NCBI GenBank assembly: GCA_965221525.1
Contig: CBDCSG010000008.1
Coordinates: 852,575 to 916,574 of the forward strand
Direction of reading: 5' to 3'
Origin: Acidimicrobiales bacterium
GTDB taxonomy: Bacteria; Actinomycetota; Acidimicrobiia; Acidimicrobiales; CATQHL01
DNA length: 64,000 bases
Below are positions 20,868 through 32,286 of this stretch, one piece after another; the first letter of the stretch is position 1, and every line of letters starts with the position of its first letter. The notes beneath the pieces were generated by a model. The model saw only the letters and a list, made by a program, of their open reading frames with translations, searched no databases and was not told where the DNA came from. Position numbers and translations under genes: made by a program.

Positions 20868-21548
20868 GTGTGCGGGCGATTCGTTTCGGCGACCTCCCCT
20901 GAGGATCTGGCCGCCTACTTCGGGGCCCAACTCGACGACGTCGCCTCCCTCGACCCCAGCTACAACGTCGCGCCCACCAACGACGTGTACTCGGTGCTCG
21001 TGTCCGACGGCGTCCGCAGACTCTCCACCCTCCGGTGGGGCCTGATCCCGCCGTGGGCGAAGGACCCTCGCATCGGCAACCGCATGATCAATGCCCGCTC
21101 CGAGACCGTGGCCGACTCGAAGGCCTACCGGCGGCCCTTCCGGGCGCGCCGCTGCATCGTGGCCGCCGACGGCTTCTACGAGTGGGTGCCGGTTCCCGGC
21201 GAGCGGCACAAGCAACCCGTGTACATCCACCGCACCGACGGCCAGCCGCTGGCGTTCGCGGGACTCTGGGAGCGCTGGCAGCCGCCCGACGGTGACCTCC
21301 TGCGGTCGACGACGATCATCACGGGCCCCGCCAACGACCGGATCGCCGAGGTGCACGACCGGATGCCGATGGTGTTGCCGCCGAGCGCCTGGGAGCCGTG
21401 GCTCGACCCCGGCCTCGACGATCCGGTTGCCGCCGGGGAACTGCTGAGGCCCGCACCGCCGCAGTTGTTCACGTTCCACCCGGTCAGCCGGGACGTCAAC
21501 AACCCGCGCCGCAAGAGCCCCCACCTCATCGAACCGATCACCCCTTGA
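20868..21548 (+). CDS. SOS response-associated peptidase (SRAP/YedK/HMCES family)
   Basis: N-terminal MCGRF, SYNVAPT, INARSETV, DGFYEW, HDRMP. Confidence 0.95.
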   Translation: MCGRFVSATSPEDLAAYFGAQLDDVASLDPSYNVAPTNDVYSVLVSDGVRRLSTLRWGLIPPWAKDPRIGNRMINARSETVADSKAYRRPFRARRCIVAADGFYEWVPVPGERHKQPVYIHRTDGQPLAFAGLWERWQPPDGDLLRSTTIITGPANDRIAEVHDRMPMVLPPSAWEPWLDPGLDDPVAAGELLRPAPPQLFTFHPVSRDVNNPRRKSPHLIEPITP

Positions 21549-21556
21549 GGCAATCG

Positions 21557-23227
21557 ATGGTGCTCGCGCGACCTCCCGCGGCCCGCAGTCCCGCCTCGGC
21601 GCTCCCGGCCCGGGCCGGCTGGCGGTCGCGGCTGGAACGGGCGACCCTCCGCTGGCAGGCTCGGCTCGAGACCGCGGCCGTCGACAACGTGCTGCCCTGG
21701 CTCATGGCCCTCGTCCTGGGCGGTGCACTGGCGGGTCTCGCGCTGGCCCGTGCCTACTCGTTGCAGGCGGGAACGGACCTTGCCCTGTTCAATCAGAGCA
21801 TCTGGCAGGTGAGCCGCGGCTTCCGGCCCGACTCGACCCTCGTCGGCGGCGACTACCTGGCCCGGAACGGCTCGTTCATCATCTATCCCATCGCGGGCCT
21901 GGTGCGCTGGTTCCCGATCACCCCCGCCGTGCTGGCCCTCCAGTCCTCGGCGCTCGCGCTCGGGCTCGTCCCCCTGTGGCGCATCGCTCGCCGCCGGGCG
22001 AACCTGAAGGTGGCGCCGGCGTCCGCGGTCGCATTCGCCTACGCCTGCTACGCCGCCCTGCACAACGCCAACCTCGACGGCTTCCATCCGGAGACGCTGG
22101 CCCTGCCGGCGCTGCTGGGCGCCGTCTACTACGGGCTCGCGGCGCGCTGGGTGCCCTTCGGCATGCTCGTGGCGGTGGTGCTGGCGTGCCGCTCGGAACT
22201 CGGCTGGGTCGTGGCGGTGCTGGGGTTGGTGCTGGCGGTCGAGCTCCGCCGCCGGCCGGCCGCCGGAACCGAACCCGAGCGGGCGCCCTCGCCGTGGTGG
22301 ACGCCGGTGGGAGTCGGCCGCGAGCTGCTCACGATCTCGGGGCGGCACTCGCGCACCGCGCTCATCTGGGCGTTCGTGGGGCTCATCTGGGCGCTGCTGG
22401 CAATCGAGACGATCCAGCCGATCCTGGCCGGGGGCGAGTTCCCGCACCTGGCCCGCTACGCCGAGTACGGCGACTCCAGCACCGCGGACGTCATGTGGGG
22501 GATCCTGCGGCAACCGCACGTGTTCCTCGGCAACCTGGTGACGCAGGAGAACTTCCTCGTTGGCGTCACGTTGCTTGCGCCGGTGCTGTTCCTGCCGCTC
22601 GTGGAGTTGCGCTACCTGATGCCCGCCGTGCCCTTCTTCGTGCTGCAGCTTGCGTCGGACACTCCCGAGGCTCTGCTGGCCGAGTCGGTGCCGGTGGCGG
22701 CGTTCGTGCTGGTGGCGACCGTGTTCGCATTGCGGCGGGCGGGCGCCGTGCTGGTGCGGCGGGTCCGGGTCAACCGCCGGCTCGTGGTGACGCTGGTGCT
22801 GGCGACGGCCATCTTCTTCGTGCGCGACGCCGGCAGCTCGCCGTTCCACGCTCCCTGGGGCTGGACGCGAGACGCTGCCGACGCCGACCGCCTGGCGGCC
22901 GTCGAACAGATCCCCGACGACGCCGCGGTCCGGGCCTCGGGTCCGCTGTTGCCGCTCCTGGCCGAGCGGAACGTCCTGTTCGAACTGGAGGCGGGCGGGA
23001 CGTCGGCACGTGTCGACGCGCAACGCGCTGTCGCCGGCGTGGGATGGATCGCCCTCGATCTCGCCTCGGCGCCGCACTGGGGGTCGGAGTCCCTGGAAGT
23101 CGAACGGTTCGACACCACGCTGCGCCAGCAGGGCTGGGAGCGTGTCTTCGCCGCCGAGCAGGTGAGGGTGTATCGCTACAGCGGCCAGGACGCGGTGGCG
23201 CCGCCGCCGGCGCCGGGCAACACCTAG
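21557..23227 (+). CDS. DUF2079-like polytopic membrane protein (GT-C type glycosyltransferase-like)
   Basis: Multiple TM helices; DLALFNQSIWQ and GFHPETLALP motifs. Confidence 0.7.
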   Translation: MVLARPPAARSPASALPARAGWRSRLERATLRWQARLETAAVDNVLPWLMALVLGGALAGLALARAYSLQAGTDLALFNQSIWQVSRGFRPDSTLVGGDYLARNGSFIIYPIAGLVRWFPITPAVLALQSSALALGLVPLWRIARRRANLKVAPASAVAFAYACYAALHNANLDGFHPETLALPALLGAVYYGLAARWVPFGMLVAVVLACRSELGWVVAVLGLVLAVELRRRPAAGTEPERAPSPWWTPVGVGRELLTISGRHSRTALIWAFVGLIWALLAIETIQPILAGGEFPHLARYAEYGDSSTADVMWGILRQPHVFLGNLVTQENFLVGVTLLAPVLFLPLVELRYLMPAVPFFVLQLASDTPEALLAESVPVAAFVLVATVFALRRAGAVLVRRVRVNRRLVVTLVLATAIFFVRDAGSSPFHAPWGWTRDAADADRLAAVEQIPDDAAVRASGPLLPLLAERNVLFELEAGGTSARVDAQRAVAGVGWIALDLASAPHWGSESLEVERFDTTLRQQGWERVFAAEQVRVYRYSGQDAVAPPPAPGNT

Positions 23228-23628
23228 CCGTCCCAGCCCAGGGCGTCTCGCAGCCGGGCCGCGTTCGCGGCCAGTTCGGCCTGCTCGACGCTCGCCGCCG
23301 CATTGGCGAAGTCCAGGTCGCTCATCGAGTCGGCGCCGAAGACGTGCAGGTGGACGTGCGGGACCTCGAAGCCGGCCATCACCGTCGCCACCCGCTGCGT
23401 GCCGAAGGTGTCCATGATCGCCCGGCCCACCCGGTGCGCCACCTCGGTCAGGTGCATGTTCGTCTCGACGTCGAGGTCGAGCCAGTGGTCCACCTCGGCG
23501 ACCGGGACGACCAGGGAGTGGCCGGGGGTGAGCGGGTTGATGGTCAGGAAGACGGCGCAGCGGTCGTCCCGCCAGACGAAGTGCCCCGGTAGCTCGCCCC
23601 TCAGAATGAGCGTGAACAGCGTCGCCAT
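23224..23628 (-). CDS. HIT family hydrolase
   Basis: MATLFTLILRGELP, GHSLVVP, EVPHVHLHV histidine triad. Confidence 0.93.
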   Translation of the reverse strand: MATLFTLILRGELPGHFVWRDDRCAVFLTINPLTPGHSLVVPVAEVDHWLDLDVETNMHLTEVAHRVGRAIMDTFGTQRVATVMAGFEVPHVHLHVFGADSMSDLDFANAAASVEQAELAANAARLRDALGWDG

Positions 23629-23686
23629 GGTGCCCTCCCTGCTTTCCCGGAGCCGTGCGGCCGGCACTGCACGGTACTCTCCTGCC

Positions 23687-24298
23687 GTGCGCGTCGAGAA
23701 CCTTCGCGGTCAACTGTGGACGGTTCCCAACCTGGTCACGTTCGGGCGGTTGGCGTGCATCCCGATCTTCTGCTGGCTCCTGTTCGGCGTCGACAGCCGG
23801 ATGGCGGCAGGCATCCTCCTCGGCGCGCTCGGCGCCAGCGACTTCCTCGACGGGTTCCTGGCCCGGCGGCTCGACCAGGCCACCGAACTCGGCGCCATCC
23901 TCGATCCCGTTGCCGACCGGCTCATGTTCTTCGCCGCCGTGATCGCCATGGCCGTCAACGGCGACGTGGCGCTGTGGTTCGCGATCGTGGCCCTCGTGCG
24001 CGAGTTCGGGCTCTCCGTGGGGACGCTGGTCCTCGCCGGCCGCGGCGTGGGTTGGCTGGGGGTCAACCCGTGGGGCAAGGCCGGCAGCTTCGGCCTGATG
24101 TTCGCCTTCCCGATGTTCCTGCTGGGCTCGGCCGACATCCCCGGCGCCGGGGGCTGGACGATCTCCGGGTGGGTCTGGGGGATTCCCTCCCTCGCCATCG
24201 CCTGGTACGGGGCGTACCGGTACGTGCCTGCCGGTCGCGCCGCGCTGGCGGAACTGCAGCAGCAGGACTCGCAGGCGCCACCGGCGGGCGAGTCCTGA
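23687..24298 (+). CDS. CDP-alcohol phosphatidyltransferase (PgsA2-like)
   Basis: TVPNLVTFGR, SDFLDGFLARRLDQATELGAILDPVADR signature. Confidence 0.93.
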   Translation: MRVENLRGQLWTVPNLVTFGRLACIPIFCWLLFGVDSRMAAGILLGALGASDFLDGFLARRLDQATELGAILDPVADRLMFFAAVIAMAVNGDVALWFAIVALVREFGLSVGTLVLAGRGVGWLGVNPWGKAGSFGLMFAFPMFLLGSADIPGAGGWTISGWVWGIPSLAIAWYGAYRYVPAGRAALAELQQQDSQAPPAGES

Positions 24299-24403
24299 GA
24301 CCATCGGGCGACCTCGGTCGTTGATGGTGACCACACGGCGGTGGGGTAGCGTGAAACCGATGGTGGATCGGGAGCGGCGACGGACAGGGATGCTCGGAGT
24401 CCG

Positions 24404-24796
24404 GTGAGCGTCCCCGAGCTTCTGCGGTACTCCGAGGATCACGGCTGGGTCGCTCCGCCGGGCGAGGGGCCGGAGGGCCACGCGCGTGTCGGCCTCACCG
24501 ACTACGGCCAGGATCTCCTCGGTGAGGTCGAATTCGTCGACCTCCCGGCACCCGGCAGCCATCTCCGAGCCGGGGACCTCATGGCCGAGATCGAAGCCCG
24601 GAAGGCCACCAGCGAGCTGTACTCGCCGCTGGGCGGGCGGGTCGTGGCCGTCAACGAGTCGTTGCTCGATTCACCCGGGGCCATCAACAGCGACCCCTAC
24701 GGCGAGGGCTGGCTCTGCATCGTCGCCCCCGACGACGCCGGCGACATCGACCGGTTGATGGACCCCGGCGCCTACGCGAGGTTCGTCGATGGCTGA
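24404..24796 (+). CDS. gcvH: Glycine cleavage system H protein
   Basis: LRYSEDHGW, VGLTDYGQDLLGEV, lipoyl-Lys EARKATSELYSP, INSDPYGEGW. Confidence 0.92.
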   Translation: MSVPELLRYSEDHGWVAPPGEGPEGHARVGLTDYGQDLLGEVEFVDLPAPGSHLRAGDLMAEIEARKATSELYSPLGGRVVAVNESLLDSPGAINSDPYGEGWLCIVAPDDAGDIDRLMDPGAYARFVDG

Positions 24797-27484: not shown

Positions 27485-27518
27485 GGGCACCGTCGCCGCA
27501 TCAACCTGGCTCCACGGC

Positions 27519-27878
27519 GTGAAGCAATCGGTTCCCGCCGCCGGCGAGGGCGGGGCCGGATTCGCCCATGCGTCCGAGCGGGCGTTCAGTGAGTTGCTCG
27601 ACTTCTACGGCGTGGCGTGGGAGTACGAGCCCACCACGTTCGTCCTGGAACGAGATGCCACCGGGCGGGTTCTCGAGGCGTTCACCCCGGACTTCTACCT
27701 CCCCGGCTACGACGTGTACGTCGAGTTGACGACGCTGAAGCAGAAGCTCGTCACCCGCAAGAACCGCAAGGTCCGCAAGCTGAGAACGAGCTATCCGGAC
27801 GTCCGCGTGAAGATGCTGTATCGGCAGGCCACGCTGGGGCTGCTGGCCAAGTACTCCCAGGAGCCGGTTCTGGTCTGA
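27519..27878 (+). CDS. Small PD-(D/E)xK nuclease-fold-like protein
   Basis: SE..F..LLD..GV.WEYEP...FTPDFYLP..DVYVELTT resembles the restriction endonuclease / phage endonuclease I core. Confidence 0.7.
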   Translation: MKQSVPAAGEGGAGFAHASERAFSELLDFYGVAWEYEPTTFVLERDATGRVLEAFTPDFYLPGYDVYVELTTLKQKLVTRKNRKVRKLRTSYPDVRVKMLYRQATLGLLAKYSQEPVLV

Positions 27879-27912
27879 GCGGCGGCCCGCGGTGCGGGTT
27901 CGCAGCGCCGGC

Positions 27913-29190
27913 TCAGATGGAGGCGGCCATCTCCAGGAGGTCGTCAGCGTCGGGACTGCCCGGTCCGTTGTCGACGATCTCTCCCGACGGTGACAGGAGT
28001 ACCCACCAGGGGTGAGAGGCGACTCCCAGCAGCGTCGCCGGGCCGAACGACTCGCTCCAAACCACCGGGAACGACTGGATTCCCGTCACGGCCGCAAAGC
28101 TCTGCGCCTCTGCCAGGGAGTCGGTCACCCCCAAGCCGATGACCAGGACCTCGTCGCCGTGGTTTCGAGCGAACTGCTCGATGCCGGGGGCCTCCCGGCG
28201 GCAGACCGGTCAATGGGGTGCCCAGACCCACACGAAGATGGGTCGGTCGGCGGGTGCGAACGAGGCCAGAACGATGCTGTCGCCGCTGAAGACGTCGATG
28301 ACCGTGGAGGTGGGAAGGTCGTTCGGTCCGACCACCTGGGTGGTAGGTGGTGGCGGCGGCAGATCGGGCGGCGGTGGCGGAGGATCGGGCGGTGGGGGCG
28401 GATCGGGCGGCGGCGGCGGAGGATCGGGTGGTGGCGCTGGTTCGACCTCGGCTGCCTGCTCGCCGGCCCGCTGTGCCTCCTCCTCGGCCGCAGCCGCCGC
28501 GGCCTGGGCTTCGGCTTCGGCTGCGGCCTGTTCGGCCGCGCGCTCTCTGGCCTCGGCCTCCGCCTGCTCCGCAGCCGCCGCGGCCTGGGCTTCGGCTGCG
28601 GCTCGGGCTTCGGCTGCTGCTTGTTCGGCTTCGGCTGCTGCCTGTTCGGCTTCGGCTGCTGCCTGCGCTGCTTCGGCTGCGGCCTGTTCGGCCGCGCGCT
28701 CTCTGGCCTCGGCCTCCGCCTGCTCCGCAGCAGTCTGTTCGGCGTCGGCTGCGGCTTGGGCTTCGGCTGCTGCTTGTTCGGCTTCGGCTGCTGCCTGCGC
28801 TGCTTCGGCTGCGGCCTGTTCGGCCGCGCGCTCTCTGGCCTCGGCCTCCGCCTGCTCCGCAGCCGCCGCGGCCTGGGCTTCGGCTGCGGCTCGGGCTTCG
28901 GCTGCGGCCTGTTCGGCTTCGGCTGCGGCCTGCTCGGCCGCGAGTTCGTCAGCCGATGGTGAGGGCTCGGGTGCGGGCGCCGGAGGTGGCGGTGCGGGTT
29001 CGCGGGGCGGCTCGGGGGCGGTGGCAGCCGGTGGCGCCGGCGAAACGCTGCCGGGCCGCGCCGGTTCGGCGCCGGAGCAGGCTGCGGCGGCCAGGGCTGC
29101 GATGGCGATGACCGCGGCGGCGACGGGGAACAGGGCACGCGGCGGTCGGGTTCGCCGGTCCCGGGGCCGCGTCGAGTCGGTGCAACTCAC
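27913..29190 (-). CDS. Putative selenoprotein: TlpA/redoxin-like thioredoxin-fold lipoprotein with long Ala/Glu stalk (Sec at TGA 28210-28212)
   Basis: Lipobox AAAAC; in-frame TGA within WVWAPH-U-PVCRREAP; the frame stays open for another 98 codons with thioredoxin-fold character (VIGLG, GVASHPWWVLLSPSGEIV); SECIS-like hairpin follows the TGA. Confidence 0.85.
28174..28209 (-). promoter_or_regulatory. Putative bacterial SECIS element 1
   Basis: After UGA: CCGGU-CUGC-C-GCCGGG-AGGCC-CCCGGC-AUCGA-GCAG; 6-bp upper stem, loop starts at +17 with G in second position, lower stem CUGC/GCAG. Confidence 0.72.
28445..28946 (-). repeat. Degenerate coding repeats encoding (AAEQAAAEAE/AEARERAAEQ)n helical stalk
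   Basis: Block GGCTGCGGCCTGTTCGGCCGCGCGCTCTCTGGCCTCGGCCTCCGCCTGCTCCGCAGC recurs at about 28519, 28675 and 28807, with shorter sub-repeats. Confidence 0.9.
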
Positions 29191-29244
29191 AGTTGGCAAG
29201 ACTCTACCGTCGAGGCCGCCGGTGTCGTTGGCGGCGGCCTCGTG

Positions 29245-29895
29245 TCAGAGTGAGGCCACCTGCTCGAGAACGGTGTCCTCATCGATCTCGCCGTAGCTGC
29301 CCACGAGGAGTTCCCCGGACGGCGTGAACAGGGCCCACGCAGGCTGGCTCGCAACGCCCAACTGGCTCCACGAGTCGAAGGTCTCGTCCCAGTACATCGG
29401 GAACGAGGAGATCCCGGTGCCCTCGACGAATTCCCGCGCGAAGTCCAGATCGTCCTGGGTTCCCAGGCCGGCGACCAGAACCTTGTCCCCGTGTTCTCGA
29501 GCGAACTGCTCGACGCCGGGCGCCTCCCGGCGGCAGACCGGTCAATGAGGTGCCCAGAACCACAGGAGTATCGGCCGGTCGGCGGGCGCCAGTGAGGACA
29601 GCACGATGCTGTCGCCACTGACGACGTCCACGACGTCGACCGCGGGGAGGTCATTGGGCCCCGACGCATCGGCGGGCGGCGGTTCGGCGGCAGCGGGCGG
29701 CGGGGACGGTTCCGCGGCAGCGGGCGGCGGGGGTGGCTCGGGCGCGGGCGGCGGCGAAACCTGGGCCGGTTCGGTGTCGCTGCAGGCGGCCGCCGCCAGA
29801 GCGGTGACGGACAGCAGCACGACGGCGAGGAGCTTCGCAGGCCCTCGCGCCGGTCGCGCCGAAGGCGTGGGTCGGGCTGGTCCGCTGCTGTTCAC
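29245..29895 (-). CDS. Putative selenoprotein: short TlpA/redoxin-like thioredoxin-fold lipoprotein (Sec at TGA 29542-29544)
   Basis: Lipobox LAAAAC; LWFWAPH-U-PVCRREAPGVEQFAREHGDKVLVAGLGTQDDLDFAREFVEGTGISSFPMYWDETFDSWSQLGVASQPAWALFTPSGELLVGSYGEIDEDTVLEQVASL; paralog of the adjacent gene on both sides of the TGA. Confidence 0.87.
29506..29541 (-). promoter_or_regulatory. Putative bacterial SECIS element 2
   Basis: After UGA: CCGGU-CUGC-CGCCGGG-AGGCG-CCCGGCG-UCGA-GCAG; 7-bp upper stem with the same geometry as element 1. Confidence 0.72.
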
Positions 29896-29947
29896 AGGTA
29901 GCAGACTCTACCGCTGGGCGGCGCGCGTGTGGCGGCGCCGCGTGCGG

Positions 29948-31738
29948 CTACGGCTCGATCCAGATGGCCTCGACGGCGGCGATTCTCGGCCCGCTCGACG
30001 ACAGGAAGTCGAAGATCACGCTGATCTGCGCCCGCAGCGGGTCGGGCGTCTCCTCGGAATCGCCGGACTCGCCGTCATCGGTCGGGAGCGCCGGCGGCAA
30101 CTCGTTGCCCCCGGTGTTCGTGTTGGCCGCGGTCGTCGTTGTCGGGGTCGGGGCGGACTCCAGTTTCGGAGGCAGTGTCGACCGGCCCACGGAGGCCTGG
30201 TAGATCGAGACGTAAGCCAGGTTGGCGAAGTCGGAGTGGGGTGCGCCGAGCGGTCCGGGGGCGTTGATCCTCACGACCGCGCTGTCGCCGCTGCCGTCGA
30301 TCCAGAAGAGGTCTGCCGGTGAGGCCGTCGTGTCGGAATCGCGCGGCGAGGGAATGTCGTGGGTGCGGTTCCACCAGTCGTCCCCGGTTCCGGCGTCGGA
30401 GGTCTCCAGAACCTTGACATCGCCGGGATCGGCTCCCCAGCGGACCACCAGCCCGCCGGGCACGAACGATGCGGACTCGACGTTCGGCCCGCTCGTGAGT
30501 TCTCCGGCCAGGCTCGCCATGACGTCCAACTGGTCGCTCGTCAGCGTGAGGGGTTGCGCCACGAGCGTGTCGGTCGACACCCAGCCGGCCTGCCCTGCGG
30601 TTGTGATGACCTCGGCCCATGTCGAGCTGGAGACGGTTGACCGGCGATCGGTCAGGCGGGTGCCGTCGGCGAGGAGGCCGACTTCGCCGGCAGCGTCGTC
30701 GGCCTCGGCGCGGATGACCGATCGGGCGTTGCCGATGGTGTGCGCCGTCAACTCGCTCGTGTGAACGGCGATGGCGTCGCCATCTCGCCGGTGCACCTGG
30801 CACGGCTGGTCGAGAAGGTCTCCGAACGCGGCGCAGTCGCCGTCGAGGCGATACTCGGCGACACCGACGTTGGAGAACTGGAAGACCGTGGCGTTGAGTT
30901 GGGTGAGGAACTGCTGGGCCGTCACCCCGACCTCGGCGTCGAATGCGTCGCCGAGGTCGCCGGGGAGATCGATCGTCACCCACCGGCTGTCCGATGCCGC
31001 CGTGGCGGTCCGCGTGGAGTCTGCGCTCAGTCCCCGGAAGCCCGCGGTGGTGTCGGCTTCGTTCGGGCCGCCGAGGAGGATTCCCAGAGCGGTTGCGAGG
31101 TCGTTGGTGGCGACGGCCCGCTTGCGGGGGGCGGCGGTGGTGTCGCCGCAGGCGAAGTAGACGGTGACCGACGCCGTCAGGGTGCCGTCGTCACCTGCCG
31201 GCTCGACCGGGCATGCCGTCGTTTCGGCGACGGTCGTGGTCGCCTCGTCCAGTCCCGTGTCGCTCTTCTCGCCGGCCTGCGGGGGTGGGGGAGTCGCAGG
31301 GGCATCGGCCGGCGTCGGGTCGACCGCGGGTGGTGTGGGCGGCGCGACGGTCGTCAGTTGCCCGGAGTCCCGTTCCGACGACTCGATGCCCGCCGGGGGC
31401 GGTGGAGGTGTCCCGCCCTCCGGCGGCGGGTCGGTGGTGCCCGGGTCTCTCTCCGGCAGCGGCGCGACAGCAGCCGGATCGGGGGTGGCGGCAACCGGCG
31501 GGGTTGCTGCGATCTCACCTCCGGGATCCGGGGCGGTCTGCGTCAGGGTCACCGATACGACGGTGGCGATCGCCGCGCAGGCCGCCGCGACGAGGACGAA
31601 CGCCGGTCGCAGGCGCACCTGCGGCAGGCGTCTCGTGCGGCTCGTGCGGCGCTGGATCTCGAACAGGGCGCCGGGGGTGACCTCGACCTCGCCGGTCCGC
31701 TGGGCGAAGGCGTCACGGAGGCGTTGTTCGATGTTCAC
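29948..31738 (-). CDS. Putative membrane anti-sigma-like protein with GerMN-like and SH3-like extracellular regions
   Basis: N-terminal EQRLRDAF..V....L.EIQRR then a TM helix; VTVYF..LGILLGGP..QLNATVFQF (GerMN-like); WAEV...GQAGWVS (SH3-like); coupled to the ECF sigma stop codon. Confidence 0.7.
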   Translation of the reverse strand: MNIEQRLRDAFAQRTGEVEVTPGALFEIQRRTSRTRRLPQVRLRPAFVLVAAACAAIATVVSVTLTQTAPDPGGEIAATPPVAATPDPAAVAPLPERDPGTTDPPPEGGTPPPPPAGIESSERDSGQLTTVAPPTPPAVDPTPADAPATPPPPQAGEKSDTGLDEATTTVAETTACPVEPAGDDGTLTASVTVYFACGDTTAAPRKRAVATNDLATALGILLGGPNEADTTAGFRGLSADSTRTATAASDSRWVTIDLPGDLGDAFDAEVGVTAQQFLTQLNATVFQFSNVGVAEYRLDGDCAAFGDLLDQPCQVHRRDGDAIAVHTSELTAHTIGNARSVIRAEADDAAGEVGLLADGTRLTDRRSTVSSSTWAEVITTAGQAGWVSTDTLVAQPLTLTSDQLDVMASLAGELTSGPNVESASFVPGGLVVRWGADPGDVKVLETSDAGTGDDWWNRTHDIPSPRDSDTTASPADLFWIDGSGDSAVVRINAPGPLGAPHSDFANLAYVSIYQASVGRSTLPPKLESAPTPTTTTAANTNTGGNELPPALPTDDGESGDSEETPDPLRAQISVIFDFLSSSGPRIAAVEAIWIEP

Positions 31739-32286
31739 GCCTCGTCCCCGGTCTCGTCGTCGTCGGAGCCACCGAGCGTGCGTTCGAGAGCCGCGAGGCC
31801 CCGGCTGGCGTGCGTCTTGACCGAGCCGCGCGAGATGCCGAGCACCTCGGCGATCTCGGCCTCGCTCAGATCGAGGTAGTAGCGCAGCGTGAGCACCTCG
31901 GACTGCCGGCGCGGCAGGGCTCGGACCGCATCGATCAGCGCATCACTCCGGAGGCGGTCCATGGCGCCGGACTCGGCACTCTCGATGGGTGGGGGCGCCT
32001 CGGGTGCCAGGCGGCGGCGCACCATGCGGCGGCGCATGCGCGAGCGGGCGCCGTTCATGACCATGCTGCGCAGGTAGGCGGCCTCCTTGCCGGGCTCCGG
32101 GAGGGTCTGCAGCGTGTGCATCTTCACGAAGGCGTCCTGCACGACTTCCTCGCAGCTGCCGACGTCATCGAGGAGAAGGGAGGCGAGGCGTACGAGATCC
32201 TTGTAGTGGTCGGCGAATAGCCGGACCAGCAGATCATCTTCTGTCTCTCTCCCTGGTGGGCTGCCTCGCCGCGGTGGGGGGCTCAT
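31735..32286 (-). CDS. ECF RNA polymerase sigma factor (actinobacterial SigE-like family)
   Basis: LVRLASLL..EEVVQDAF, AYLR, LPRRQSEVLTLRYYLDLSEAEIAEVLGISRGSVKTHASRGL. Confidence 0.93.
   Translation of the reverse strand: MSPPPRRGSPPGRETEDDLLVRLFADHYKDLVRLASLLLDDVGSCEEVVQDAFVKMHTLQTLPEPGKEAAYLRSMVMNGARSRMRRRMVRRRLAPEAPPPIESAESGAMDRLRSDALIDAVRALPRRQSEVLTLRYYLDLSEAEIAEVLGISRGSVKTHASRGLAALERTLGGSDDDETGDEA

What the first reader, a model, noticed from the sequence alone, without database searches (positions are those of the whole stretch)
27913..29895. Hidden tandem pair of selenocysteine (UxxC) thioredoxin-fold lipoproteins
Seen: both minus-strand ORFs stop at ...WAPH-TGA (28210-28212 and 29542-29544), yet each frame continues as PVCRREAPG(I/V)EQFAR.HGD.VLV.GLG...GVAS(H/Q)P.W.L..PSGE for exactly 98 more codons. 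The paralogs are similar on both sides of the TGA, and both have a lipobox (AAAAC). Established: TlpA/ResA/redoxin proteins carry WAxWCxxC and a later cis-Pro loop (GVxxxP), and Sec typically replaces the N-terminal attacking Cys (UxxC). Inference: these are two membrane-anchored extracytoplasmic selenoproteins (425 and 216 aa) that standard gene callers split or miss. A shared nonsense mutation at exactly the catalytic codon in two otherwise diverged paralogs is far less likely. His in place of the Trp before the redox motif is also atypical.
Basis: partly seen in the sequence, partly recalled or inferred. Interest (0 to 1): 0.92.

Follow-up and report, generated by a model that had tools for sequence, protein, structure and literature searches.

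The report
Two selenocysteine thioredoxin-like lipoprotein genes
Two neighbouring genes that seem to stop early at TGA almost certainly read that TGA as selenocysteine and encode membrane-tethered, cell-surface redox enzymes; the kind is already known, but gene callers cut these copies in half.

Summary
Two minus-strand genes (29895..29245 and 29190..27913) carry an in-frame TGA in WAPH-TGA-P-V-C, followed by exactly 98 more open codons. The genome has selA, selB, tRNA-Sec and a selD that itself contains TGA. The TGA sits at the same column in 24 of 41 related genomes, all selA-positive. None of the 9 genomes without a selA match has it; the four whose best homologues I read there carry Cys. 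The part after the TGA is under purifying selection. A hairpin (UCGAGC-AGUUC-GCUCGA, 28 nt after UGA) fits the published bacterial SECIS model. It is fully paired in 51 of 52 TGA-forms and in 0 of 11 Cys-forms, and it is built with rare codons. The read-through domain models as a thioredoxin fold (pLDDT 96) closest to M. tuberculosis DsbF/DsbE. Lipoprotein signal peptides are conserved.

UxxC selenoproteins of the TlpA/Prx-like class are already catalogued, so these are new, unannotated members of a known kind. The His before the motif is a subfamily trait shared with Cys forms. Selenium incorporation, redox direction and substrates remain untested.

The parts
29245..29895 (-). geneA: 216-aa precursor of a lipoprotein-anchored DsbE/DsbF-like thioredoxin-fold selenoprotein (GTG start at 29895, terminal TGA at 29247-29245)
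29542..29544 (-). geneA Sec codon (TGA, residue 118) in the motif WAPH-U-P-V-C
   Evidence: same column is TGA or Cys in homologues
29497..29513 (-). geneA candidate SECIS core (hairpin 2): UCGAGC-AGUUC-GCUCGA, 28 nt after the UGA, encodes (V)EQFAR
29514..29532 (-). geneA hairpin 1: CGCCGGG-AGGCG-CCCGGCG, 9 nt after the UGA (7-bp form); seen only in the geneA/geneB paralogue types
29782..29895 (-). geneA lipoprotein signal peptide; lipobox ...LAAAA|C with Cys codon 29784-29782
   Evidence: lgt and lspA present
29905..29910 (-). TAGAGT, a -10-like hexamer 9 nt before the GTG start of geneA (leaderless-type arrangement, inferred)
27913..29190 (-). geneB: 425-aa precursor, paralogue of geneA with a long repeat linker (GTG start at 29190; an in-frame TTG at 29199 overlaps the -10-like hexamer; terminal TGA 27915-27913)
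28210..28212 (-). geneB Sec codon (TGA) in the motif WAPH-U-P-V-C
28165..28181 (-). geneB candidate SECIS core (hairpin 2), same sequence as in geneA
28182..28200 (-). geneB hairpin 1 (GCCGGG-AGGCC-CCCGGC)
29077..29079 (-). geneB lipobox Cys codon (...LAAAA|C)
28349..29101 (-). geneB tether: Ala/Glu/Gln-rich tandem repeats (periods 21, 42, 132 and more) followed by a Pro-rich (PPPD) stretch, between the lipid-anchored Cys and the redox domain
   Evidence: linker length varies widely between orthologues
29201..29206 (-). TAGAGT, a -10-like hexamer 10 nt before the GTG start of geneB
29211..29242 (-). G+C-rich hairpin directly after the geneA stop codon (possible terminator; no U run)
   Evidence: z = -3.34; 0 of 200 shuffles fold as well
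29948..31738 (-). 596-aa membrane protein of no known family, directly upstream of geneA; this synteny is kept in 15 of the 36 related loci compared, all of the window's taxonomic family
31735..32286 (-). SigE-family ECF sigma factor gene, heading the same-strand gene row
   Evidence: TIGR02983, 144.1 bits against cut-off 141.55

Best explanation
Both genes are genuine selenoprotein genes. Each mRNA probably has its own promoter and little or no leader. It encodes a precursor with a lipoprotein signal peptide, a flexible tether and one thioredoxin-fold domain of the DsbE/DsbF-ResA-TlpA type. The tether is about 80 residues in geneA and about 290 residues, repeat-rich, in geneB. The first residue of the redox motif is selenocysteine (U-P-V-C).

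During translation the in-frame UGA is read by Sec-tRNA(Sec), delivered by SelB. SelB is recruited by a hairpin in the coding sequence just downstream. The best candidate is UCGAGC-AGUUC-GCUCGA, 28 nt after the UGA; a second G+C-rich hairpin lies between it and the UGA. The precursor is exported and lipid-modified at Cys38 by Lgt/LspA, so it stays tethered to the outer face of the cytoplasmic membrane. There Sec acts as the attacking nucleophile and forms a selenenylsulfide with the Cys three residues on, exchanging thiol-disulfide bonds with envelope proteins.

Shown here: the gene structure, the Sec machinery, the Sec/Cys homologue pairs, selection on the downstream part, the hairpin, the fold, and the signal peptide. 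Inferred: actual Se insertion, which hairpin binds SelB, the lipid anchor, the redox direction, the redox partner and the substrates. On direction I lean about 55:35 to a reductant recycled by the genome's single CcdA-like protein rather than an oxidant like Mt-DsbE/F in vitro.
For: (1) Sec machinery. selA and selB lie side by side on C5, tRNA-Sec (anticodon tca) is about 10 kb away, and selD carries the canonical ...HGAG-U-AGKLGP in-frame TGA.

(2) Sec/Cys pairs. I read TGA at the active-site column in 24 of 41 related genomes. All 24 are among the 32 with selA. None of the 9 genomes without a selA match has it; the four whose best homologues I read there carry Cys (G023, G028, G038, G026).

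(3) More Cys forms. Cys forms at 36-51% identity have the same W-x-W-A-P-H-C-P-x-C motif and lipobox.

(4) Open frame and selection. 52 distinct TGA-forms in four paralogue groups all keep about 96-102 open codons after the TGA. Within the genus, downstream dN/dS is 0.17-0.43 in 24 comparisons.

(5) Hairpin 2. It has 6 of 6 pairs in 51 of 52 TGA-forms and at most 4 of 6 in 11 of 11 Cys-forms. It is the only RNAalifold consensus helix. 98.4% of its cells are paired, with C-G to U-A and A-U to C-G double changes. Its 13-nt core occurs 3 times in the 3.65-Mb genome, each time 33 nt after one of the three such TGAs.

(6) Rare codons. The hairpin uses Ala-GCT (5% of Ala codons) and Arg-CGA (7.3% of Arg codons). 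dS of codons +1..+20 is 0.15-0.46 against 0.47-1.44 further on.

(7) Fit to the SECIS model. The hairpin meets the published bSECIS constraints: loop 3-9 nt, G in the first two loop positions, 16-37 nt from UGA to loop, MFE at most -7.5 (PMC13188914 Fig. 2 legend, passage read). Here the loop is AGUUC, the spacing is 34 nt and the energy is -8.0 kcal/mol.

(8) TGA is still a stop. It ends 622 of 899 long ORFs, so it is not reassigned genome-wide.

(9) Fold. The AF2 model has pLDDT 96.3, with U at the start of helix 1. The best PDB matches are Mtb DsbF 3IOS (TM 0.83/0.86) and DsbE 1LU4, then ResA. By sequence, 3IOS scores E = 1.4e-16 across the U.

(10) Lipoprotein route. A lipobox is found in 29 of 37 homologue ORFs; some misses are contig ends or a fused copy. 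lgt and lspA are present.

(11) Assembly. Contigs of public runs cover both TGAs with no other letter there, including partial pieces from a second study.
Against: There is no direct evidence of selenium in the protein and no RNA data.

Independent compensatory events in hairpin 2 are few: one in genus g2, one in L042, and a register shift in L043. In one search the covariation score of the two-hairpin structure (0.137) is not far above versions slid by +1 (0.102) or +2 (0.118).

The peptide motif E-Q-F-A-R also occurs in one Cys form (P0035), and V-E-x-F-A is general in the subfamily. Part of the conservation is therefore at protein level.

Hairpin 1 also fits the bSECIS model (spacing 16 nt, -13.7 kcal/mol), so the SelB-binding element is not settled.

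No Rfam SECIS family matches; one search gave only chance-level hits.

Pfam scores of geneB are just under the curated cut-offs (25.6 against 26).

The comparison with the most distant A-type homologue (L038) gives dN/dS of 0.73, with dS probably saturated.

The closest solved relatives are oxidants in vitro (PMC3853704), which argues against my lean towards a reductant.
Confidence: 0.9

Rival explanations
1. The TGAs are true stops. The genes are pseudogenes, or they encode only the N-terminal pieces (signal peptide, tether and the first strands of the fold), and the downstream frames are not translated.
For: Standard gene calling gives exactly this. The public protein collections hold only N-terminal fragments ending ...WAPH and C-terminal fragments starting just after the TGA. 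TGA is the commonest stop in this genome.
Against: The downstream 98 codons stay open in 52 distinct TGA-forms and evolve under purifying selection. The Pfam domain and a pLDDT-96 fold need both halves. The TGA sits exactly on the catalytic Cys column of Cys homologues. A truncated product would lack the whole redox motif.
Confidence: 0.03
2. The UGA is read through, but not as selenocysteine. It might be read as Cys or Trp by near-cognate decoding, or by a context-dependent read-through signal, with the downstream hairpin acting only as a read-through stimulator.
For: Read-through is all that sequence conservation can show. No experiment here identifies the inserted residue.
Against: TGA-forms were found only in genomes with selA: 24 of 24, against 0 of 9 genomes without a selA match. 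The position is the catalytic Cys, the classic site of Sec/Cys exchange in UxxC families (PMC1794560, passages read). The hairpin meets the bSECIS model, including G-U in the loop (PMC13188914). selD of the same genome uses Sec.
Confidence: 0.04
3. Same selenoproteins, but working as oxidants. They would introduce disulfides into exported proteins, as Mt-DsbE and Mt-DsbF do in vitro, rather than acting as reductants of the ResA/TlpA/CcmG kind.
For: The closest solved relatives by sequence and by fold are Mt-DsbF and Mt-DsbE. These fold reduced hirudin oxidatively and do not reduce insulin (PMC3853704, passages read).
Against: The wider fold class (ResA, TlpA, CcmG, Etrx1, SdbA) consists mostly of reductants in vivo (recalled). 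The genome has a CcdA-like electron importer. The X-X dipeptide P-V/T does not discriminate. Nothing here measures a redox potential.
Confidence: 0.35

Closest known systems
Mycobacterium tuberculosis DsbF (Rv1677, PDB 3IOS) and DsbE/MPT53 (Rv2878c, PDB 1LU4)
   Same: They are the best matches by sequence (E = 1.4e-16 and 4.3e-10) and by fold (TM 0.83/0.86 and 0.77/0.79). They share the WFWAPW-C-P-x-C...EAP context, a single thioredoxin-like domain with an extra N-terminal beta-hairpin, and an extracytoplasmic location.
   Different: They have Cys, not Sec, and Trp rather than His before the motif. Identity is only about 27-30%. They lack a long repeat tether. Their in vitro oxidant activity (PMC3853704) cannot simply be transferred.
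[quoted passage not shown]
   Same: All are thioredoxin-fold thiol:disulfide oxidoreductase homologues with Sec as the first residue of UxxC and with Cys homologues (PMC1794560 Table 1; PMC13188914 table; passages read). The geneA domain matches PF00578 above its cut-off.
   Different: I could not fetch the reference sequences of those families, so identity with any of them is untested. The published examples that I read about are mainly Deltaproteobacteria or ocean metagenome reads. Here the carrier is a high-G+C actinobacterial lineage, with 3 paralogues in this genome and up to 4 in relatives.
NCBIfam NF041057, Rcas_1661 family thioredoxin-like (seleno)lipoprotein (listed as 'DsbG-like protein' in PMC13188914)
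   Same: The concept is the same: a lipoprotein-anchored thioredoxin-like protein that occurs with Sec or Cys in UxxC.
   Different: It is not the same family. geneA scores 13.1 bits against a cut-off of 190, and only in the N-terminal region. geneB has no match.
ResA / TlpA / CcmG (DsbE) cytochrome c maturation reductases
   Same: Same fold class (ResA 1SU9 TM 0.79/0.81, CcmG 1KNG). All are membrane-tethered and extracytoplasmic.
   Different: NCBIfam scores are far below the cut-offs (ResA 25.6 against 170, DsbE 24.8 against 123, TlpA 26.9 against 230). The genome has a separate Cys-type ResA-like gene next to its CcdA-like gene (C8:23494-23943 and 22791-23333), which is the likelier cytochrome c maturation pair.

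Membership tests
Bacterial selenoprotein gene (Sec-UGA recoding) | In-frame TGA aligned with Cys in homologues (Sec/Cys pair) | tested here: met
   The TGA column is Cys in L040, L041, L073-L079 and in P0026-P0033, P0035 and P0040.
Bacterial selenoprotein gene (Sec-UGA recoding) | Coding conservation on both sides of the TGA | tested here: met
   One search gives dN/dS of 0.17-0.43 downstream within the genus (24 comparisons). All 52 distinct TGA-forms stay open for about 96-102 codons.
Bacterial selenoprotein gene (Sec-UGA recoding) | [quoted passage not shown] | tested here: met
   Hairpin 2 has loop AGUUC, 34 nt spacing and -8.0 kcal/mol. Hairpin 1 has loop AGGCG, 16 nt spacing and -13.7 kcal/mol. 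Hairpin 2 is present in 51 of 52 TGA-forms and 0 of 11 Cys-forms. No Rfam SECIS family matched.
Bacterial selenoprotein gene (Sec-UGA recoding) | selA, selB, selC (tRNA-Sec) and selD in the genome | tested here: met
   all four are above the curated cut-offs, and ARAGORN calls tRNA-SeC (tca).
Bacterial selenoprotein gene (Sec-UGA recoding) | Selenium actually incorporated at the UGA | not testable with these tools
   This needs 75Se labelling or mass spectrometry.
TlpA/ResA/DsbE-like thioredoxin-fold oxidoreductase (Pfam AhpC-TSA, Redoxin, Thioredoxin_8) | Profile match above the curated cut-off | tested here: met
   geneA scores AhpC-TSA 33.2 (cut-off 26), Redoxin 29.8 (26.6), Thioredoxin_8 28.1 (27) and Thioredoxin 27.6 (23.5). 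geneB is just below (25.6 against 26), but its domain is 61% identical to that of geneA.
TlpA/ResA/DsbE-like thioredoxin-fold oxidoreductase (Pfam AhpC-TSA, Redoxin, Thioredoxin_8) | Thioredoxin fold with the redox motif at the N-terminus of helix 1, and a conserved Pro loop | tested here: met
   pLDDT 96.3, U41-x-x-C44 directly before helix 42-58. Pro108 is nearly invariant; the top 500 PDB matches all have E at most 0.001, and all the listed ones are thioredoxin-fold proteins. That this Pro is the cis-Pro is recalled, not measured.
NF041057 Rcas_1661 thioredoxin-like (seleno)lipoprotein | Profile score above the curated cut-off (190 bits) | tested here: not met
   geneA scores 13.1 bits; geneB has no match.
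Bacterial lipoprotein | Signal peptide with a lipobox Cys, plus Lgt and LspA in the genome | tested here: met
   ...LAAAA|C in both genes, and a lipobox in 29 of 37 homologue ORFs by a simple rule. LGT 205.6 bits, Peptidase_A8 99.9 bits. No dedicated lipoprotein predictor was available, and acylation itself is untested.

The most novel reading that the evidence does not exclude
This may be the visible tip of a lineage-wide, unannotated, selenium-dependent envelope redox module in high-G+C actinobacteria of this class. It would comprise two to four Sec-containing DsbE/DsbF-like exported proteins per genome. They are arranged as tandem pairs with short and long tethers, and are sometimes fused into one protein with two Sec residues. 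All would be decoded through one shared family-specific SECIS hairpin (UCGAGC-AGUUC-GCUCGA, 28 nt after the UGA) that has shaped the peptide motif EQFAR. Together with selD, such a module could be a main reason why these largely aerobic organisms keep the Sec machinery.
Probability: 0.3. Interest if true: 0.55.

Novelty: new member of a known kind. Interest (0 to 1): 0.42.

Why it matters
The practical point is an annotation error that repeats across a whole lineage. The public protein collections searched here hold these genes only as halves, without names. Any proteome, pangenome or metabolic reading of these organisms therefore misses 2-4 exported redox enzymes per genome.

Biologically, extracytoplasmic lipid-anchored selenoproteins are uncommon. 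This family offers natural Sec/Cys pairs at 36-51% identity, paralogues with very different tether lengths, and natural two-Sec fusions. That is good material for asking what Sec buys a thiol-disulfide oxidoreductase outside the cell.

The shared hairpin also gives a clean test case for how a SECIS element constrains the protein sequence it is embedded in.

None of this overturns current knowledge. UxxC replacement in thioredoxin-fold oxidoreductases is the most typical route by which bacterial selenoproteins arise (PMC1794560).

Tried and rejected
Rfam at a permissive threshold over 27500-30300 gave 7 chance-level matches (miRNA, snoRNA and lncRNA families) and no SECIS family. This is expected, since bacterial SECIS elements are poorly represented there.

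NCBIfam gave only sub-threshold matches to named equivalogs (TlpA, ResA, StoA, DsbE, MauD, TrxA, NF041057), so I file the genes under none of them.

Two '1 TGA' rows (G033 and G036) turned out to be ordinary cytoplasmic TrxA genes with the TGA outside the domain. I dropped them from the TGA-form count.

G004 (77% complete) gave no TGA-form. It is counted as a miss: 24 of 41.

In one search (301 genomes of the class) 22 genomes have a match with a TGA inside and 5 have only stop-free matches. I did not fetch those loci, so the position of the TGA in them is unchecked.

The dN/dS against L038 (0.73) is unreliable because the sequences are too diverged.

Hairpin 1 as a universal element was rejected. 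Only 66% of its cells are paired, and it is absent in register from the WSPYU and WSPLU paralogue groups. It remains a possible second element in geneA and geneB.

Genome-wide reassignment of TGA was rejected (622 of 899 long ORFs end in TGA).

No RNA holder is listed for this stretch, so nothing can be said on expression. In one search depth and uncovered bins are not interpretable. Only the identity at the two TGAs in pieces that cover them was used. Three of the four runs are one sample that may be the source of the assembly.

Supplementary tables of PMC5029168 and PMC1794560, which list selenoproteins per organism, are closed and might already list members of this family. I also could not fetch the reference accessions named in the table of PMC13188914.

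Literature: searches are the searches. None returned a paper that describes Sec-containing DsbE/DsbF-like lipoproteins in this lineage. That is not proof that none exists.
Full report
OBSERVATION. On the minus strand two ORFs end at ...WFWAPH-TGA (TGA at 29544-29542) and ...VWVWAPH-TGA (TGA at 28212-28210). With TGA read through, each frame continues P-V-C-R-R-E-A-P-G-(V/I)-E-Q-F-A-R... for exactly 98 codons, to a terminal stop that is also TGA. With GTG starts at 29895 and 29190 the products are 216 and 425 aa. Both begin with a positively charged stretch, a hydrophobic core and ...LAAAA-C, and in both the Cys is residue 38 of the precursor. Pfam AhpC-TSA, Redoxin, Thioredoxin_8 and Thioredoxin matches run across the TGA. 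geneA is above the curated cut-offs and geneB just below.

SEC MACHINERY. The genome holding the window (3.65 Mb, 8 contigs, 94.6% complete) has all four components.
- selA: 382.9 bits against a cut-off of 267.9.
- selB: 267 bits against 242, directly beside selA.
- tRNA-Sec: Rfam 66.5 bits, and ARAGORN calls tRNA-SeC with anticodon tca.
- selD: 353 bits.
selD itself has an in-frame TGA in ...HGAG-U-AGKLGP, so the organism already has at least one other gene of the selenoprotein type. TGA also ends 622 of 899 long high-GC3 ORFs, so it is not reassigned genome-wide.

HOMOLOGUES. A six-frame search of the genome and 40 relatives, followed by my own reading of the loci, puts TGA at the active-site column in 24 of 41 genomes.
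- That is 20 of the 21 genomes of the window's taxonomic family. The miss, G004, is 77% complete.
- It is also found in four genomes of other families of the order (G024, G030, G031, G035).
- All 24 are among the 32 genomes with selA.
- None of the 9 genomes without a selA match has a TGA-form. The four whose best homologues I read there carry Cys (G023 WFWAPW-C-TVC and G028 WFWAPW-C-EVC; G038 and G026 more distant).
- Two further '1 TGA' rows (G033, G036) are ordinary TrxA genes with the TGA outside the domain and were dropped.

More Cys forms came from elsewhere. Records titled as Microthrixaceae and Sporichthyaceae MAGs hold Cys forms with W-F-W-A-P-H-C-P-(A/F)-C at 36-48% identity. An exhaustive HMMER search of 1.84 billion representatives found full-length lipoprotein homologues at 42-51% identity. 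All ten that I inspected have Cys at this column, and seven of them have His before it. So the His is a subfamily trait, not a Sec-linked oddity.

In the same collections the TGA-forms exist only as halves. N-terminal pieces end ...WAPH (P0003, P0004, P0005, P0020). C-terminal pieces start one to six residues after the TGA column (P0053, P0068, P0071, P0073). None has a name.

A sample of 301 genomes of the class gave 27 with a strong match. Of these, 22 have a TGA inside the match and 5 have none. The TGA position in those rows was not checked.

SELECTION. Nei-Gojobori estimates against orthologues of the genus give downstream dN/dS of 0.195-0.432 for geneA (12 comparisons) and 0.170-0.394 for geneB (12 comparisons). 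These are similar to the 40 codons upstream. The three comparisons with the sister genus give 0.23-0.45. The most distant one (L038) gives 0.73, with dS probably saturated. In total 52 distinct TGA-forms, in four paralogue groups, keep 96-102 open codons after the TGA. The groups are WFWAPHU (the geneA type), WVWAPHU (the geneB type), and WSPYUG(T/I)C and WSPLULTC (a second tandem pair elsewhere in relatives).

SECIS.
- Nucleotide conservation. Identity between geneA and geneB is nearly complete for about 60 nt after the TGA and much lower elsewhere. dS of codons +1..+20 is 0.15-0.46 against 0.47-1.44 for the rest.
- Two hairpins follow the UGA. Hairpin 1 is (C)GCCGGG-AGGCN-CCCGGC(G), 9-10 nt after the UGA. 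Hairpin 2 is UCGAGC-AGUUC-GCUCGA, 28 nt after it.
- Consensus fold. On the gap-free alignment of the 52 TGA-forms, RNAalifold keeps only hairpin 2.
- Pairing. 98.4% of hairpin 2 cells are paired, against 66.2% for hairpin 1, which exists in register only in the geneA and geneB types.
- Double changes in hairpin 2. There is C-G to U-A (three sequences, but one event, in the sister genus, where it costs an Arg-to-Gln change) and A-U to C-G (L042). L043 has a shifted hairpin, GGCUGC-GGUC-GCAGCC.
- TGA-forms against Cys-forms. 51 of 52 TGA-forms have 6 of 6 pairs; none of the 11 Cys-forms has more than 4.
- Uniqueness. The 13-nt core occurs three times in the genome, each time 33 nt after one of the three such TGAs.
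- Rare codons. The stem depends on Ala-GCT (5% of Ala codons) and Arg-CGA (7.3% of Arg codons).
- Fit to the model. Both hairpins meet the published bSECIS constraints (PMC13188914, Fig. 2 legend, passage read). Hairpin 2 has 34 nt from UGA to loop, loop AGUUC and -8.0 kcal/mol. Hairpin 1 has 16 nt, loop AGGCG and -13.7 kcal/mol.

Caveats on the SECIS. Independent compensatory events are few. The covariation score of the combined structure (0.137) is close to that of versions slid by +1 or +2 (0.102 and 0.118). V-E-x-F-A is a general motif of the subfamily, and one Cys form has EQFAR (P0035). Which hairpin binds SelB is open; I favour hairpin 2 because it is shared by all four paralogue groups.

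THE PROTEINS. With a 36-row alignment the geneA domain models at pLDDT 96.3 and pTM 0.91. It is a thioredoxin fold with an N-terminal beta-hairpin, and U41-P-V-C44 sits at the start of helix 42-58. Foldseek ranks Mtb DsbF (3IOS, TM 0.83/0.86) and DsbE/MPT53 (1LU4) first. ResA, a pneumococcal surface thioredoxin lipoprotein, StoA, SdbA and CcmG follow. phmmer gives the same top two (E = 1.4e-16 and 4.3e-10).

A simple rule finds a lipobox in 29 of 37 homologue ORFs. The misses include contig ends, a fused copy and the own geneB copy, which the rule mis-placed. Lgt and LspA are encoded.

The distance from the lipid-anchored Cys to Sec is 67-105 residues in most geneA-type proteins and 101-306 in the geneB types the rule scored. 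In this genome it is 80 and 289 residues. The geneB tether is built of Ala/Glu/Gln-rich tandem repeats and a PPPD stretch.

CONTEXT. Each gene is preceded by GGTAGAGTC (a -10-like TAGAGT) 9-10 nt before its GTG. This arrangement is kept through the genus, which suggests separate, nearly leaderless transcripts. That is an inference. A strong hairpin follows the geneA stop.

Upstream on the same strand lie a 596-aa membrane protein of no known family and a SigE-family ECF sigma factor. The 596-aa gene precedes geneA in 15 of the 36 related loci compared, all of the window's family, down to 36% identity.

The only CcdA-like gene lies about 830 kb upstream on the same contig, next to a Cys-type ResA-like gene. 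That pair is the likelier cytochrome c maturation system. The CcdA-like protein is also the only obvious electron donor if geneA and geneB are reductants.

WHAT IS KNOWN. Zhang et al. 2006 (PMC1794560; passages and tables read) list 25 bacterial selenoprotein families, 18 of them homologues of thiol-based redox proteins. These include 'Prx-like thiol:disulfide oxidoreductase' and 'Thiol:disulfide interchange protein'. The paper describes Cys-to-Sec conversion in UxxC motifs as the common route of origin.

[quoted passage not shown] In NCBIfam NF041057 is a thioredoxin-like (seleno)lipoprotein, and geneA and geneB do not match it.

A 2026 preprint on Actinomarina (10.64898/2026.04.03.716425; passages read) reports Sec machinery and about 5 mostly uncharacterised predicted selenoproteins per genome in a related marine lineage, but names no thioredoxin-like one.

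My five literature searches returned nothing on Sec-containing DsbE/DsbF-like lipoproteins of this lineage. Supplementary tables were closed.

VERDICT. These are real features, correctly seen and correctly interpreted. They are two (and elsewhere in the genome a third) unannotated selenoprotein genes of the extracytoplasmic TlpA/DsbE-like class. They are new members of a known kind, not a new kind. I put 0.9 on their being selenoproteins. The redox direction and the substrates are open. Contigs from public runs agree with the assembly at both TGAs, though three of the four runs laid are of one sample that may be the source of the assembly.

Noticed in passing
G000:C3:375771-376151 (L049, about 1492-1911 +): A third gene of the same kind lies elsewhere in the genome. 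It has WLWSPY-TGA-GTCQSHAPAIEQFAR, the identical hairpin 2, 99 open codons after the TGA, an ordinary signal peptide (no lipobox) and two roughly 55-aa internal repeats before the redox domain. In relatives it forms a second tandem pair with a WSPL-U-LTC paralogue.
   Followed up: partly
L028 (G007:C2, about 733-1917 -) and protein P0003: In one relative, geneA has no stop codon and runs in frame through a Pro-rich linker into the geneB domain. That gives one ORF with two TGA (two Sec) and only one signal peptide. A database fragment from another source (P0003) shows the same fusion.
   Followed up: partly
G000:C3:98780-99724 (L008): selD of this genome has an in-frame TGA at the active site (...HGAG-U-AGKLGP). 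Its downstream hairpin is unlike the one in geneA and geneB.
   Followed up: partly
window 29896-29912 and 29191-29208 (-): A conserved GGTAGAGTC (-10-like) lies 9-10 nt before the GTG start of each gene, with no Shine-Dalgarno sequence in between. It is kept in most orthologues of the genus, suggesting leaderless or near-leaderless mRNAs.
   Followed up: partly
window 29948-32286 (-): A SigE-family ECF sigma gene overlaps the start of a 596-aa single-pass membrane protein with no family match (weak SH3-like hint, E = 0.016-0.036). That protein is always directly upstream of geneA in the window's taxonomic family. It may be an anti-sigma-like partner; this is untested.
   Followed up: partly
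G012:C3:108056-108147 and 110333-110424: One relative has two tRNA-Sec matches with equal scores (64.3 bits), 2.2 kb apart.
   Followed up: no
window 28162-28230 and 29495-29580: In three runs of one sample, an 11,299-base contig of a related organism matches only the two active-site/SECIS stretches, with 548 letters between them in place of 1264. This is a relative with a much shorter geneB tether. The codons flanking the TGA vary there, but the TGA does not (tables 3, 5 and 8).
   Followed up: no
window 21176-24562 (-): A 1128-aa ORF has no Pfam match at E at most 0.001. It was not examined further and could be a spurious long frame in this G+C-rich DNA.
   Followed up: no
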